Source: a virus (Duplodnaviria; Heunggongvirae; Uroviricota; Caudoviricetes). From it: 5,912 nt of DNA. The stretch is from IMG/VR virus record IMGVR_UViG_2698536443_000004. One strand, 5' to 3'. Below, piece after piece: positions 1-5,912 of this stretch. The position numbers are program-made. Position 1 is the stretch's first letter. Each line of letters starts with the position of its first letter.

Positions 1-3000
1 GTTCATGGCTGAACTCCTGAAAATGGCTGTGAAAATATCGCCCGCGAAATGCCAGGCTGATTAGGAAAACAGGAAATGGGGTTAGTGAATGCTTTTGCTT
101 GATCTCAGTTTCAGCATTAATATCCATTTTTTATAAGCGTCGACGGCTTCACGAAACATCTTTTCATCGCCAATAAAAGTGGCGATAGTGAATTTAGTCT
201 GGATAGCCATAAGTGTTTGATCCATTCTTTGGGACTCCTGGCTGATTAAGTATGTCGATAAGGCGTTTCCATCCGTCACGTAATTTACGGGTGATTCGTT
301 CAAGTAAAGATTCGGAAGGGCAGCCAGCAACAGGCCACCCTGCAATGGCATATTGCATGGTGTGCTCCTTATTTATACATAACGAAAAACGCCTCGAGTG
401 AAGCGTTATTGGTATGCGGTAAAGCCGCACTCAGGCGGCCTTGATAGTCATATCATCTGAATCAAATATTCCTGATGTATCGATATCGGTAATTCTTATT
501 CCTTCGCTACCATCCATTGAAGGCCATCCTTCCTGACCATTTCCATCATTCCAGTCGAACTCACACACAACACCATATGCATTTAAGTCGCTTGAAATTG
601 CTATAAGCAGAGCATGTTGCGCCAGCATGATTAATACAGCATTTAATACAGAGCCGTGTTTATTGAGTCGGTATTCAGAGTCTGACCAGAAATTATTAAT
701 CTGGTGAAGTTTTTCCTCTGTCATTACGTCATGGTCGATTTCAATTTCTATTGATGCTTTCCAGTCGTAATCAATGATGTATTTTTTGATGTTTGACATC
801 TGTTCATATCCTCACAGATAAAAAATCGCCCTCACATTGGAGGGCAAAGAAGATTTCCAATAATCAGAACAAGTCGGCTCCTGTTTAGTTACGAGCGACA
901 TTGCTCCGTGTATTCACTCGTTGGAATGAATACACAGTGCTTATTCGTACTAATAAAATACCCAATTTTCTGTTTCTTGGTTGTGTCCAAAGTTATATTC
1001 AATATCTGGTGTTGATGTATCAATATTCTTCATACCATCAACAAGAGTTGATACAACAGCCAAATCTTGTTTGATTCTCATTAAATGGTATTTCTTCCGG
1101 CGCAATAAACTTTCAATGGCAAGTTTCTTCGTTGGGAATGCAAAAGATCTTTCTGCATTTTTTGCTACTTTCTTAATTGCATATCTATTTCTCCTTTGTT
1201 TCCATTCCTGTAACCACTGATTTGGTGCTGGTTTAAAATTAACAATCCAATGCGCAGGAACCAACCATGCATAATGCTCTGTCTGATGAAAAGCTATATA
1301 TTGAAGTGCGAATATTTTTATCCCATCTTCTTCAACTGTCGCCTGGAATCTCCAGAAAACAGGCATTCCATCATGTTCAGTTTCTGATTCAGGAAAAGGT
1401 ACGCTCCATGATTTTGTCATATCTCACCTCAAATAAGTGGTTTGCTGCCTAATTTCATTTTCTGGCGACCAACACAAGTCACCTCGCCGTCAGTTGTTTT
1501 GATTTCCGGTAGCCTGCCGCGTAAATGGCTACGTTTGGAAGACATACACCAGTTTCTGGTTGCTTATGTCCAAACTCATTCGCGTACACAATGGCCGCTC
1601 GCTCCAGATTGCGTCTGTATTCTTTCTGTTGCCAGATCACGTCCTGTGCCATGAACTTAATTGGCTTAGCGTCTTCTATGCGCTCAGGCGTTTCGTGAGT
1701 ACCTTTAGCCTGAATCTGCGCTCTGCTTAGAGTAGGGCGGTGTAATACTTCTGAACTTATTGCTTCTTCGCGGGCCAGTACGCCGTTAGCTAATGCCTTT
1801 GCCTTTAAACGCTCACGACGACGAGAACGTGAATTGCCTTTGAACTGAGTTCTGCGTGTCATATAGACCTCCTGATGAACTTTGGTGGTGTGGTAGGTGG
1901 GAGACCCATTTCGACCTGTTTCGGCCTACTTCAATTCGGCAATAGTCCCGCAGGCCTCGCCGCTTTACGTGCGACATATTCCCGTCCATGAACCCTTCAC
2001 CACACCCCAAAGTTCACTTTGGTTATTGCGCTTTGTCAGCGCCGTAGATTCATATTCGAATCGTTGTATATTCACCGCCCTGGTGAGTAATGCGTCCTGC
2101 TGACGACGATAATAATGAACCAATAGTTCGACATTATCAAGAACTATTGGTACGAATTTTGGTGATTTATTAACTCTACGAAGTATGATTCTGATATATA
2201 AGGAAATTTATTTTTGAAAATGTGGCTGATGAAGGTTATGCGGCAGGGATCATAACTGCATGGTTTAGCGAGTTACATCAATAAATACAATTGGTTATGT
2301 TTTTTAGGTGGGCGAACGTGAGGCAAAGAAAACCCGGCGCTGAGGCCGGGCTAGATTTTAAAGTATTTATCTTTTAGAGATGTAGATGTAAAACTTTTCG
2401 CCTTTGAAAATTTTTTGTCATCAGAAGGGCTTATGAACTCATCTTTTTTGTAGGGAACCGCTAATGCTGCATCACGTCTGCGAGGCAGCTTGCTTACTTC
2501 CTCGCGCTTTTTCATGATCAGTTATCCTTTAATAACCTATACAGTTTTGTAGGGGTACATCCTGAGGATATTGTTAAGTTCGTAGCACGCCTTTTCCGCC
2601 CATCATCGTATAAACGAAAACCAGTAGTAGACGAATTTTCTGCGTCAAAAACTATAGACAGTATAGCGTCCCCAGACTTTTTTTGCCATTCGCATGTGCC
2701 GTTAGTTGGTTTCGTCATCTGTAGACGCCAGTCAAGAACGCCATCACTTATAGCTGAGAGATCGTTTAGTACATCTAGTACGGATTGATATCTTTCATTT
2801 GGATCTACATGAATGCATTTGTTCACTATTGTTATTAATTTTTTATGTATATGGGGAGGATACTCTTTTAATGGATAGCAGCCATTAATTATCGACTCTC
2901 TGAGTTGTTCAATCGTGCTAAATGCAGATCTTTCTCTTTCAAAATTATCATGTCCAACACACATTCTATATATGGTTAATCCTGCCTGATATATGTCATA

Positions 3001-5912
3001 TGTGAAATTATAATCATTTGTTGATAAAGAAAAATATTCCGGTGGCACATGAAAATGATATCCAAACTCAGGCGCAGCTCTCGATTCCTCATTGACTAAC
3101 TGAGATAATCCAAAGTCAGATAGCATGGCCTCATTTCTGTTTGATATCATAATGTTATTAGGTTTTATATCAAAATGCATAAGACCTTTTGAGTGTATAT
3201 GATAAAGTCCACTTAAAAATTGAATGGAATACCGTATTATCTCCCTGCTTGTAAGATTATTTTTTTTCATTAATTGGTTTAGCGAACCATTATGATAAAA
3301 TGGCATGGCTATATAGATATTGCTCTCACATTGAGCAGCATACTGAACTTGCACAATATTTGGATGTGCATGTTTATAGAGAAGCCTTGCTTCATTAAAG
3401 TAGTCGTCGTGGTTAGTGTTTTCTTTTTTTTCTATTTCTTTAATCACCAAGTCATGAGCTAGGTGTCTGTCATGAGCCAGATATACTTTTGAAAAACAAC
3501 CCTGTTCTTCTAGATCACTAATCCATTCGAATTCTACATCAGCTCTTTTGTATGGAGTTAGCATCCCCTTACCTCCGCAGATAGTGCAGCCAAAACAGCT
3601 TCATTTGTTTCAGTTGTAAAACCAGAATTATCGATTCCATTTATATTGCGGTGTGACTTCAATATTTCTTTATACTCGATCTCTGTTAGGTTCAATGATG
3701 ATTTCATGCCAGATTTTCTAATAGTGTAATATTTTCTTACATCACTGCTTGAAAATGCTTCTTGAATAACAGCTTCTATATAAAGGCGGTCAATGCTAAG
3801 ATTATCAGAGTTTGATTCAGTAACGCGTATGGCAGCTAATTCAACATTATATAAATTAAGAATGTCGAGGATGTTATTTCTCACATACTTTAATTTTTCT
3901 GGTGTGTCTAAGGTCGAAGGTATTTTAATAACATCAACACATTTGAGTGCAGACTCATTAGTGCAATATACAACAAAAGATGTAACTTTGGGCGCCGCTC
4001 TAACACCTAGTATTCTCATTTTTTATATCCTATTTTAGAATCAGGCCGCATCTCTGCGACCATCCATCATCCAAACGTCTCTTCACTCATCCGAAGAAGC
4101 AGCAATCCGGGTCAGCACGCACAAGCTCAAGCGCATCAGTCAGCGAAAGTTCAGTACTGTACTGATGCCATTTCATATCCTTCCGCATCCAATAGATTTT
4201 CCATCTATCCAGAGAACGTATGTACTTGATTCTTGCTGATGGCAGGATGTTTGTTTCACCTGGATTGCCCTGCCACACGGGGCGCTGTTCGCCGATATCT
4301 ATCGTTTGGTCATTGATGCTATAAACAATATCCAGTTCATTGCGGATATGTTCAGGCGGCCTTATGCTTTCAATGAATTGGTGAACTTCTTTTTTTACTG
4401 CTTGATATTCAAGGTCATTGAACGCCATCTATCCTCCTTACCCAAACGTCTCTTCAGGCCACTGGTTACCAGCTATGTGACGATGAAGTCACGAACTTTT
4501 CAGCCACTCCCTTGCCTCGATGTCATCCAGATGGCGAGATTGCTTCAGAATACCAGCTACATACTCCACCTTTGCTACTTGATGATAAGGCAACGTTATA
4601 GGCCTGTGATCCTGGTTAATGCTTGTAAATTGGTATTCTCCATCTCTGTCATAGCCAAGAACCTTAATCATGTTGTGTCCTTCAACGGTTCTGACAAACA
4701 CCTCATCACCCGGGAATACTTTGGTGTTAGGCTCAATGAGTACATATTCTCCTGATTTTATTCTGGGCCACATGCTGTCTCCTTTCACACGAAGACCAAA
4801 GGCATCTGGATCATCGCTATAAATTTTGAGCCACCCATCGCGCTCTTCGGTCATCTCGATGGCACCATCAACACCAAGAATTGCCTCACCAACCACGCGC
4901 ACTAACCCTTTTTTTAATTTGCCAACAAATGAAAGAGTATCTTCATCATTCGCTCCATTTAACGAAGTGCCGTGCTGAAGCCAAACAACATCAACGTTTA
5001 GAAATTTCGCAAGCGCATTCATTTTTTCCTGACGCGGTAAAGACTCAGCATTAAACCATTTGCTAACGCCTTTGGACGAAAGAGAAAGGGCACGGGCTAT
5101 AGCCATTCCCCTACCATGTTCATCAAGACCAGCTTCTTTACAGGCTTGCGCTAGCCGCTGGGCGAATTCTTTGCGCACTTTTTCATTCTGAACCATGAGT
5201 ACGATACTAAAGCACTTGCAAAAACTTTCAGTTCAACCATAATACGTACTGAAAGTACGAAAAAGGATATTCCTATGCAAAATCTTGATGAGCCGATTAA
5301 AGGTGTCGGCATCCCTGAAGTTGCGAAGGCTTGTGGAGTTAGCGAAAGGGCTGTCTATAAGTGGCTCAAAAACGGCTTCCTCCCTAAGACTGAGTTTTTT
5401 GGGAAAACTAAATACGCATCAAAAATCGAAGAGATTTCTGGTGGCAAATATCAAGCAAGCGAAATGCTTGAAATAAGCAAAAAGAACCTTCTGGCTGCAT
5501 AAGTAACACCGCTATTTTCACAATGGGCATTCGTCCTACGTCGCTGACAAAGCGAGTCCCAATATATCTGACCAACTAAGGCCATATGCGTTTCCACGCA
5601 TACCTTTCAACTAGCTATTCACTATTGGAAATCTTAAGAAATGGAACAAACAAGTTACAGCAAACTATCACAGCGAGAAATTGATCGCGCTGAAACTGAT
5701 TTACTCATCAACCTGTCAACGCTTACCCAGCGCGGTCTGGCAAAGATGATTGGCTGTCATGAATCGAAGATAAGCAGAACAGACTGGAGGTTTATAGCTT
5801 CGGTCTTGTGTGCTTTTGGCATGGCATCAGACTGAACCGCCCCGGGAATCCTGGAGACTAAACTTCCTGAGAAAGAGGTAAACAGGATGACTAAAAATAC
5901 TCGTTTTTCCCC

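What the first reader, a model, noticed from the sequence alone, without database searches (positions are those of the whole stretch)
2518..3564. Hanks-type kinase with intact catalytic motifs and an uncharacterised 70-aa C-terminal extension
All key subdomains are readable (GCFSKV, LVIKEI, HFDIKPNN, DFG, APE, DIYQAG), so the enzyme is probably active. The glycine loop is degenerate, with a single Gly. The C-terminal tail (from about WRLQMTKPTNGTCEW to the end) has no motif I recognise and could be a sensor or regulatory domain. In kinase-based abortive-infection systems, specificity usually comes from such non-catalytic parts.
Basis: partly seen in the sequence, partly recalled or inferred. 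Interest (0 to 1): 0.7.

Follow-up and report, generated by a model that had tools for sequence, protein, structure and literature searches.

The report
Known phage 933W Stk defence kinase
This ORF is the already-studied stk gene of Shiga-toxin phage 933W, a kinase that makes lysogens abort infection by a rival phage; the new point is that it sits in the middle of a three-gene cassette conserved across bacterial phyla.

Summary
The window is the immunity region of Stx phage 933W (100% identity), and ORF 2518-3564 (minus strand) is its annotated stk gene. The kinase reading is correct. K42, E58, H130/D132/N137, DFG 150-152, E176, D190 and R258 are invariant in the family, and the Gly loop has a single Gly. 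One correction: the true "APE" is PPE 174-176, not AAPE 163-166. Stk is already published as an active tyrosine kinase expressed from pRM that aborts HK97 infection, so the finding is known. The roughly 77-aa tail is real. It is a confidently modelled beta-meander plus helix with invariant W279 and W293, it is the fastest-evolving part, and it has no Pfam, PDB or viral-fold relative. Its role remains untested. I found no description of the following. In 81 of 81 loci chosen by kinase motifs alone, a 150-aa "RuvC-like" protein lies directly upstream, with Arg where RuvC has catalytic Asp/Glu. In about 80-85% of loci a roughly 55-aa basic ORF abuts the kinase stop (13% background; dN/dS 0.1-0.4). 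No other neighbour is conserved. Stk is therefore probably the catalytic subunit of a three-gene module.

The parts
2518..3564 (-). stk (L0082 / ST933Wp22, NP_049482.1), 348 aa: Hanks-type kinase plus C-terminal domain; gene B of the cassette
   Evidence: 100% identical to 933W and many Stx phages; annotated; Pfam Pkinase E = 2e-46; family of 543 or more proteins of about 340-350 aa
2785..3504 (-). Kinase catalytic domain (aa 21-260): K42, E58, HFD 130-132 (non-RD), K134, N137, DFG 150-152, invariant Y169 where Ser/Thr kinases have the Thr of 'GT', PPE 174-176, D190, R258
2521..2751 (-). C-terminal domain (aa 272-348): strands 290-297, 300-307, 312-319 and 324-326, plus helix 338-347; W279 and W293 invariant
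3558..4019 (-). Gene A (L0083 / ST933Wp23), 153 aa, annotated 'RuvC-like'. Strictly conserved upstream partner whose stop overlaps the stk start by 7 nt (GGATGCTAA), with GGAGG just upstream
   Evidence: present, same strand and abutting in 81/81 kinase loci; reverse check; invariant G5 R7 P34 P40 L43 D52 E68 R78 E82 E87; junction read
2351..2515 (-). Gene C (L0081 / ST933Wp21), 54 aa, basic; starts 3 nt after the stk stop; phrog_4063
   Evidence: a 45-75 aa same-strand ORF abuts the kinase stop in 70/86 loci against 13% background (p about 1e-47); dN/dS 0.11-0.39; alignment; HMM tests. Sequence homology of the 933W copy to the other clades is not demonstrable (1.1 bits).
2331..2352 (-). Intrinsic terminator tM, which ends the pRM transcript right after gene C
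   Evidence: 8-bp stem with 6 GC pairs followed by a T-run; annotated tM in 933W
4087..4428 (-). L0084, DUF3024 protein (PADLOC candidate PDC-S43). Co-transcribed between cI and gene A but not part of the conserved cassette
   Evidence: Pfam DUF3024 E = 2e-31; PDC-S43 E = 5e-42; found next to the cassette in only 2 of 81 loci
4489..5196 (-). cI repressor. Its pRM promoter (window about 5204-5231) drives the operon in lysogens
   Evidence: HTH_3 plus Peptidase_S24; annotation; co-transcription is stated in PMC3564112 and PMC3430580

Best explanation
This is stk of Shiga-toxin phage 933W. It is a lysogeny-expressed, eukaryote-like (Hanks-fold, non-RD) protein kinase that acts as the killing or arresting enzyme of a prophage abortive-infection system. 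In the lysogen it is transcribed from pRM with cI and is almost silent. Superinfection by a heterologous lambdoid phage (HK97) switches it on, proteins become phosphorylated (on Tyr, according to the literature), and the infection aborts. New here: stk is the middle gene of a self-contained three-gene cassette that is conserved from Enterobacterales to Bacteroidota and Bacillus. The cassette is A (a 150-aa RuvC-like protein with Arg in place of RuvC's catalytic acids), B (the kinase with its tail) and C (a roughly 55-aa basic protein). My inference is that the C-terminal domain is a family-specific protein-protein interaction module. It would dock A and/or C, or the phage trigger, and keep the non-RD kinase off until infection. 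On this view A, C and the tail together supply the sensing and regulation, not the tail alone. Identity, fold, catalytic residues, the operon and cassette conservation are shown. Kinase activity, Tyr specificity and the Abi phenotype come from the literature. The role of the tail, A and C is inferred.
For: Identity: 100% over 2.2 kb to 933W and dozens of Stx phages; annotation. Function from the literature. Intact catalytic core. Operon: gene overlaps and SD-like sequence, terminator, and a low-GC (0.33-0.35) island against flanks of 0.44-0.50. Cassette: A is upstream in 81/81 loci selected on kinase motifs only. A is followed by the kinase in Pseudomonas, Vreelandella, a Bacteroidota metagenome, a Bacillus plasmid and (as an unannotated ~350-aa ORF) an SPbeta-like phage. 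C abuts the kinase stop in 70/86 loci against 13% background, with dN/dS below 0.4. No other conserved neighbour exists. The settings are variable and often mobile or defence-related: after a cI-type repressor in another prophage, beside HNH and AbiEii genes, and on plasmids. Tail: confidently folded, family-restricted, fastest-evolving (p-distance 0.75 against 0.51 for the kinase domain), and tracking partner A slightly better than any of 40 kinase-domain blocks (partial r 0.43 against mean 0.27 and max 0.40).
Against: No experiment or computation here ties the tail, A or C to sensing. The mirror-tree signal is small and the control is imperfect. From my recollection of Tyler & Friedman 2004 (not held in the library), recombinant Stk autophosphorylates on its own, so A and C are not needed for catalysis. 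I do not know whether the plasmids used in Friedman 2011 carried A or C. Gene C was not detected in one Pseudomonas subgroup (L007-L013), and the 933W copy is not demonstrably homologous to the other clades. The catalytic loop (D-I-K-P-N-N) is Ser/Thr-type, which fits poorly with exclusive Tyr specificity.
Confidence: 0.7

Rival explanations
1. Toxin-antitoxin logic. The kinase is a toxin held in check by a labile antitoxin (A or C). Any phage that shuts off host or prophage gene expression frees it, and no specific trigger is recognised. The tail is only the antitoxin-binding surface.
For: Small genes flank the kinase tightly with overlapping stops and starts. The cassette is self-contained and mobile. 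Kinase-based TA and defence modules are known, for example HipBA and KKP (PMC11341870).
Against: Exclusion is reported as phage-specific. HK97 is excluded, and lambda is excluded in a way that depends on its immunity region, which favours a specific trigger. From my recollection, Stk can be over-produced and purified alone, which argues against strong intrinsic toxicity.
Confidence: 0.2
2. The tail is only a structural or oligomerisation cap of the C-lobe with no role in specificity. The trigger is recognised by A and/or C, or by the kinase domain itself.
For: pTM of 0.89 suggests the tail packs rigidly on the kinase. A is more conserved than the tail and is invariably present. The tail resembles only generic small alpha/beta folds.
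Against: The tail is the most divergent part of a strongly conserved protein yet keeps invariant W279 and W293. That pattern is typical of an interaction surface under diversifying pressure.
Confidence: 0.25
3. A is the real effector. It would be a RuvC/RNase H-fold nuclease switched on by Stk phosphorylation (conserved S91, S92 and Y97), with the kinase acting as sensor and transducer.
For: PHROG, PGAP and JGI label A as RuvC-like. Pfam RuvC gives weak hits in 9/40 members. The hhalign alignment is collinear. D52, E68, E82, E87 and E140 are invariant or nearly invariant acidic residues.
Against: The RuvC assignment is sub-threshold (best E = 3.5e-4; hhalign probability 1.4-20%; nothing in PDB by profile). 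In the only available register, RuvC's D7 and E66 are replaced by invariant R7 and R65. The published phenotype is linked to widespread Tyr phosphorylation.
Confidence: 0.1
4. Stk mainly serves lysogen physiology, virulence or prophage regulation rather than defence.
For: It is expressed during lysogeny and retained in clinical STEC prophages. It occurs in 225/5426 complete E. coli genomes.
Against: PMC3681748 reports little or no activity in uninfected cells and no effect of stk on the A/E lesion phenotype. The cassette occurs in non-pathogens of many phyla. A split, inactivated allele circulates.
Confidence: 0.05

Closest known systems
Stk of phage 933W (Tyler & Friedman 2004, J Bacteriol 186:3472; Friedman et al. 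2011, Mol Microbiol 82:567)
   Same: It is the same gene and protein: 100% identity in the same genomic context.
   Different: Nothing differs in sequence. In the accessible literature I found no mention of the conserved partners A and C or of the C-terminal domain.
Stk2 of Staphylococcus epidermidis (Depardieu et al. 2016, cited)
   Same: A Hanks-type kinase that is silent until a phage protein activates it and then causes abortive infection by phosphorylating host proteins.
   Different: Stk2 is described as a single-gene Ser/Thr kinase. Here the catalytic loop is non-RD, the reported specificity is Tyr, the tail is unrelated, and two partner genes are conserved. Sequence relatedness to Stk2 was not tested directly.
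Lambda RexAB
   Same: Same genomic niche and logic: accessory genes co-transcribed with cI from pRM that abort infection by other phages.
   Different: The proteins are unrelated. RexAB is a membrane ion-channel system with no kinase.
PD-T4-6 (PADLOC / DefenseFinder label; Vassallo et al. 2022)
   Same: Annotation pipelines call stk 'PD-T4-6' (E = 1e-37). An O157:H7 genome is reported with PD-T4-6 plus PDC-S43, the two labels this window's stk and DUF3024 genes received.
   Different: The matches cover only the kinase domain (residues 20-276), and the same models also hit the housekeeping PASTA kinase of S. thermophilus. The label means 'Hanks kinase', not this family. PD-T4-6 is treated as a single gene.
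Kinase-partner immune modules: KKP (PfkA/PfkB/PfpC, PMC11341870) and CapK-CapS (PMC13373217)
   Same: Mobile-element or defence-associated kinases whose output is set by small co-encoded partner proteins.
   Different: The kinase classes and partners differ. CapK is of the anti-sigma-factor type and CapS is a STAS domain protein. KKP includes a phosphatase. Neither has a RuvC-like partner.
RuvC Holliday-junction resolvase (for gene A)
   Same: Similar length, a collinear weak alignment, and an N-terminal 'hGIxxxP' strand.
   Different: Scores are below every threshold. Invariant Arg sits where RuvC has catalytic D7 and E66. No PDB hit by profile.

Membership tests
Hanks-type (eukaryote-like) protein kinase superfamily, Pfam PF00069 | Profile score above the curated threshold and a kinase fold | tested here: met
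   158.8 bits against a cutoff of 31.7; Foldseek E about 1e-15 to many solved kinases
Hanks-type (eukaryote-like) protein kinase superfamily, Pfam PF00069 | Catalytic residues: beta3 Lys, alphaC Glu, HxD...N catalytic loop, DFG, subdomain VIII Glu, IX Asp, XI Arg | tested here: met
   K42, E58, H130/D132/N137, D150-F151-G152, E176, D190 and R258 are all invariant in 39 family members
Hanks-type (eukaryote-like) protein kinase superfamily, Pfam PF00069 | Canonical GxGxxG glycine-rich loop | tested here: not met
   Only the middle Gly (G22) is present, and the third position is an invariant Ser25. This feature is typical rather than essential, because the middle Gly is the most conserved one.
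933W Stk (the characterised protein) | Sequence identity and position in the 933W immunity operon | tested here: met
   100% identity, with the same neighbours cI, L0084, L0083, stk, L0081 and tM
933W Stk (the characterised protein) | Tyr autophosphorylation; HK97-triggered abortive infection | not testable with these tools
   Literature only: quoted in PMC3681748, PMC6356687, PMC3564112 and PMC8008677. The primary papers are not held.
Eukaryotic tyrosine-kinase group | Catalytic loop HRDLAARN / HRDLRAAN and P+1 loop P-I/V-K/R-W-x-A-P-E | tested here: not met
   The loop is HFDIKPNN, with the Lys typical of Ser/Thr kinases. The P+1 region is FGYHFHVPPE. The motif definitions are from established kinase knowledge.
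PD-T4-6 (PADLOC) | Full-length match to a PD-T4-6 model | tested here: inconclusive
   Best E = 1e-37, but only over the kinase domain (20-273 of 348). The models are generic.
MADS MAD6 kinase | NCBIfam NF047741 score above cutoff | tested here: not met
   122 bits against a cutoff of 460. The PADLOC mad6 match covers the kinase domain only.
RuvC resolvase (gene A) | Pfam RuvC above threshold and the catalytic tetrad D7, E66, D138, D141 | tested here: not met
   14.2 bits against a cutoff of 22.2 for the 933W copy; best member E = 3.5e-4. hhalign probability 1.4-20%. R7 and R65 occupy the D7 and E66 positions in the only available register.

The most novel reading that the evidence does not exclude
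Stk is not a stand-alone kinase. It is the catalytic subunit of a widespread, unnamed three-gene immune cassette: a pseudo-RuvC protein, a non-RD Hanks kinase with a private C-terminal domain, and a roughly 55-aa basic protein. In this reading the catalytically dead RuvC-like protein and/or the small protein, docked on the fast-evolving tail, sense a phage product or a phage-made DNA intermediate and release the kinase. Defence-annotation tools currently mislabel it as the single-gene 'PD-T4-6'.
Probability: 0.35. Interest if true: 0.65.

Novelty: already known. Interest (0 to 1): 0.4.

Why it matters
The kinase itself offers nothing new, because it is a textbook example of a prophage-encoded abortive-infection kinase. 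What matters is context. The stk module is present in about 4% of complete E. coli genomes, mostly in Stx prophages of EHEC, where it shapes which phages can superinfect or be used therapeutically. The comparative result, that two small genes always or nearly always travel with the kinase from Enterobacterales to Bacteroidota and Bacillus, gives a genetically tractable 933W/HK97 model for an otherwise uncharacterised and mis-annotated defence family. It also suggests concrete experiments on how a non-RD kinase is kept silent and then switched on.

Tried and rejected

2. Gene A as a bona fide RuvC. Rejected as unproven.

3. DUF3024 (L0084) as part of the system. Rejected, because it is adjacent in only 2 of 81 loci.

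4. A further conserved neighbour of 70 aa or more. None found.

5. CapK/CapS as the same family. Rejected, because the kinase class is different.

6. HK97 gp41 as the trigger. I recalled this from Friedman 2011, and by gene order gp41 would be the Erf-like annealing protein. No accessible text confirms it. PMC6989128 instead links escape from exclusion by a 933W lysogen to the immunity region. I therefore leave the trigger unidentified.

7. The primary papers (PMID 21985444, PMC415781, PMC524894) are not held.

8. Both structure-prediction jobs went on Stk and its tail, so A, C and the complexes could not be modelled.
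Full report
**What the window is.** The 5.9-kb window is the immunity and early-left region of a lambdoid phage. Window 2300-4500 is 100% identical to Shiga-toxin phage 933W (NC_000924.1 9886-12086) and to dozens of Stx1/Stx2-converting phages. In the 933W record the order on the minus strand is as follows (window = locus L001 minus 201):
- pRM and cI (window 4489-5196)
- L0084, a DUF3024 protein (4087-4428)
- L0083, annotated 'RuvC-like' (3558-4019)
- stk (2518-3564)
- L0081, a 54-aa ORF (2351-2515)
- terminator tM
- nutL and N

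The stk block is a low-GC island (0.33-0.35) against flanks of 0.44-0.50, as expected of an acquired accessory ("moron") element.

**Checking the observation.** The ORF and the kinase reading are correct.
- Pfam Pkinase matches at E = 2.2e-46 over residues 21-260.
- The AF2 model built on a 39-sequence alignment is confident (pLDDT 87.8, pTM 0.89) and superposes on many solved kinases.
- Across 39 family members with 39-86% identity, G22, K42, E58, H130, D132, K134, N137, D150-F151-G152, Y169, P175, E176, D190 and R258 are invariant. This is not a pseudokinase.
The true subdomain VIII motif is PPE 174-176.

- The kinase is non-RD (HFD, with F131 conserved in at least 90% of members).
- Its catalytic loop, D-I-K-P-N-N, is the Ser/Thr type.

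An invariant Tyr (Y169) sits where Ser/Thr kinases have the Thr of 'GT' (alignment to Nek7).

**What is already known.** This protein has been studied.
- Papers in the library describe Stk of 933W as a eukaryote-like tyrosine kinase co-transcribed with cI.
- It shows little or no activity in uninfected cells.
- It is activated on HK97 infection and aborts that infection. Sources: PMC3681748; PMC6356687; PMC3564112; PMC8008677; PMC3430580.
- The primary papers (Tyler & Friedman 2004; Friedman et al. 2011) are not held.
- From my memory of the 2004 abstract, purified Stk autophosphorylates on Tyr and a change of the invariant Lys abolishes activity.

As stated, the finding is already known.

**The C-terminal tail.**
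- Residues about 272-348 form a real domain: four beta-strands (290-297, 300-307, 312-319, 324-326) and a terminal helix (338-347). pLDDT is about 93-95 in the full model and 86.6 when modelled alone.
- It is present in essentially all family members, which are uniformly 337-353 aa long, and W279 and W293 are invariant.
- It has no detectable relative. No library model covers it.
- A full phmmer scan of 1.8 billion representatives with the tail alone finds only family members with confidence. The weak remainder are mutually unrelated repeat proteins.
- It is the fastest-evolving part of the protein, with mean p-distance 0.75 against 0.51 for the kinase domain.

**A conserved three-gene cassette.** I fetched 80 loci from one-genome-per-species contigs using kinase-domain motifs only. 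They span Gamma-, Beta- and Alphaproteobacteria, Bacteroidota, Ignavibacteria and a cyanobacterium.

*Gene A.*
- A homologue of the 153-aa L0083 protein lies directly upstream on the same strand in 81 of 81 loci, 933W included. It usually lies about 5 nt from the kinase start or overlaps it.
- In 933W the junction is GGAGGTAAGGGGATGCTAA, a 7-nt overlap with an SD-like GGAGG.
- The reverse also holds wherever tested. Gene A is followed by the kinase in Pseudomonas lini, a Vreelandella prophage (again right after a cI-type repressor), a Bacteroidota metagenome and a Bacillus megaplasmid. In an SPbeta-like Bacillus phage it is followed by an unannotated ORF of about 350 aa that I did not test.
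- A profile search finds 170 proteins, the 120 listed all about 150-190 aa, with no Pfam domain.

*Gene C.*
- A small basic ORF starts within -20 to +12 nt of the kinase stop and is 45-75 aa long in 70 of 86 evaluable loci. The rate after other long ORFs in the same loci is 13% (binomial p about 1e-47).
- A family HMM recovers four more copies at the expected position.
- The computable pairs give dN/dS of 0.11-0.39.
- Many copies share an N-terminal 'K-N-D-x-x-x-Y-x-T/S-R' segment and a C-terminal 'G-Y/H-aromatic' patch.
- Cross-clade sequence homology is weak. Of 39 out-of-cluster ORFs, 16 exceed the 95th percentile of shuffled decoys, and the 933W copy scores only 1.1 bits.
- A Pseudomonas subgroup (L007-L013) seems to lack it. 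For 933W the assignment rests on position, size and composition.

*Other neighbours.* No other neighbour of 70 aa or more is conserved. DUF3024 accompanies the cassette in only 2 of 81 loci.

**What gene A is.**
- PHROG, recent PGAP and JGI call it RuvC-like, but I could not substantiate that.
- Pfam RuvC is sub-threshold in 9 of 40 members (best E = 3.5e-4, N-terminal half only).
- A profile search of PDB finds nothing.
- hhalign gives 1.4% probability against E. coli RuvC and about 20% against a four-sequence RuvC profile, although the alignment is collinear end to end.
- In that register the family's invariant R7 ('GIRxxP') and near-invariant R65 ('AGIR') fall where RuvC has catalytic D7 ('GIDPG') and E66 ('AIE').
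- D52, E68, E82 and E87 are invariant, and E140, S91, S92 and Y97 are nearly invariant.

The most economical reading is an RNase H/RuvC-like fold that has lost the canonical metal site, which would make it a binding or regulatory protein rather than a resolvase.

**How it most likely works.**
- Shown: an intact Hanks kinase with a private C-terminal domain is encoded in a translationally coupled A-B-C operon. The operon ends at tM and lies downstream of cI.
- From the literature: it is expressed from pRM in lysogens, is silent until HK97 infects, and then causes tyrosine phosphorylation and abortive infection.
- Inferred: non-RD kinases are generally not controlled by activation-loop phosphorylation, so control is likely to come from bound partners. 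The strictly co-inherited A, the nearly always present C, and the fast-evolving tail are the obvious candidates.
- Partner A's divergence tracks the tail slightly better than any of 40 kinase-domain blocks (partial r 0.43 against mean 0.27 and max 0.40). That is suggestive only.

I therefore favour a model in which A and/or C, docked through the tail, hold Stk off and a phage product releases it. The rivals are:
- a toxin-antitoxin mechanism with no specific trigger
- the tail as a mere structural cap
- A as a phosphorylation-activated nuclease effector

**The trigger.** The trigger is not identified here.
- I recalled HK97 gp41, which by gene order would be the Erf-like annealing protein. No accessible source confirms this.
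- PMC6989128 reports that a 933W lysogen also excludes lambda about 10^6-fold, and that swapping lambda's immunity region restores plating.

**Comparison with known systems.**
- The protein is Stk itself.
- It works like staphylococcal Stk2, another phage-activated Hanks kinase that causes abortive infection.
- It occupies the same niche as lambda RexAB.
- PADLOC labels it PD-T4-6 and labels the neighbouring DUF3024 gene PDC-S43 (the same two labels are reported for an O157:H7 genome). Those PD-T4-6 models match only the kinase domain and also hit housekeeping PASTA kinases, so the label is generic.
- It is not MAD6 (122 bits against a cutoff of 460).
- It is not related to CapK/CapS.

**Distribution.** The A-stk pair occurs in 225 of 5,426 complete E. 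coli genomes, and in 223 of them one match covers at least 80% of the two-gene query. It is found in 41 phage records and 10 plasmid records, including Klebsiella, Providencia, Mesorhizobium and Bacillus.

**Verdict.** The added value is the conserved three-gene architecture and the characterisation of the tail as a folded, family-private domain. Both make specific experiments possible.

Noticed in passing
window 4087-4428 (-): L0084 is a DUF3024 protein that matches PADLOC 'phage defence candidate' PDC-S43 full-length (E = 5e-42). It sits between cI and the Stk cassette in 933W-type prophages and in Proteus penneri (L002), but not elsewhere. It may be a separate, untested defence gene on the same pRM transcript.
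   Followed up: partly
L091 2424-3471 (933W-like prophage contig); protein P0013: A circulating stk allele is split into a 102-aa N-terminal ORF and a 220-aa ORF that starts at Met129, so it lacks K42 and E58. The rest of the operon (cI, DUF3024, A, C, N) is intact. The protein cluster holds 330 member sequences, which suggests a common naturally inactivated stk.
   Followed up: partly
window 950-1420 (-) versus HK97 Gp45 (L088 3506-3976): The 156-aa ORF downstream of N is 99% identical (155/156) to HK97 Gp45. The phage excluded by Stk therefore shares part of its early-left operon with 933W. The function of this protein (phrog_1636) is unknown.
   Followed up: partly
L088 (HK97) 1475-3043: HK97 carries an Abc2 anti-RecBCD gene and an Erf-type annealing protein, whereas the 933W record lists gam (lambda Red-type). 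If the trigger were recombination-related, this difference could explain self/non-self discrimination. This is speculation and rests on an unverified recollection.
   Followed up: no
window 431-799 (-): A DUF2528 protein (E = 2e-47), annotated in 933W as similar to lambda Ea10/'ssb'. A kil/cIII-like pair of overlapping ORFs follows at 82-430.
   Followed up: no
L089 5058-5246 and L090 5062-5244 (Bacillus plasmid and SPbeta-like phage): The Bacillus versions of the small gene C cluster by BLAST with the Bacteroidota versions rather than with any proteobacterial ones. This hints at horizontal spread of the whole cassette between phyla.
   Followed up: no
L007-L013 (Pseudomonas loci), just downstream of the kinase: This subgroup lacks a detectable gene C by both the ORF criterion and the HMM. 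Only 7-bit matches appear, in a frame that overlaps the kinase 3' end. The gene is either lost or too diverged, which makes this a natural A-B-only variant worth testing.
   Followed up: partly
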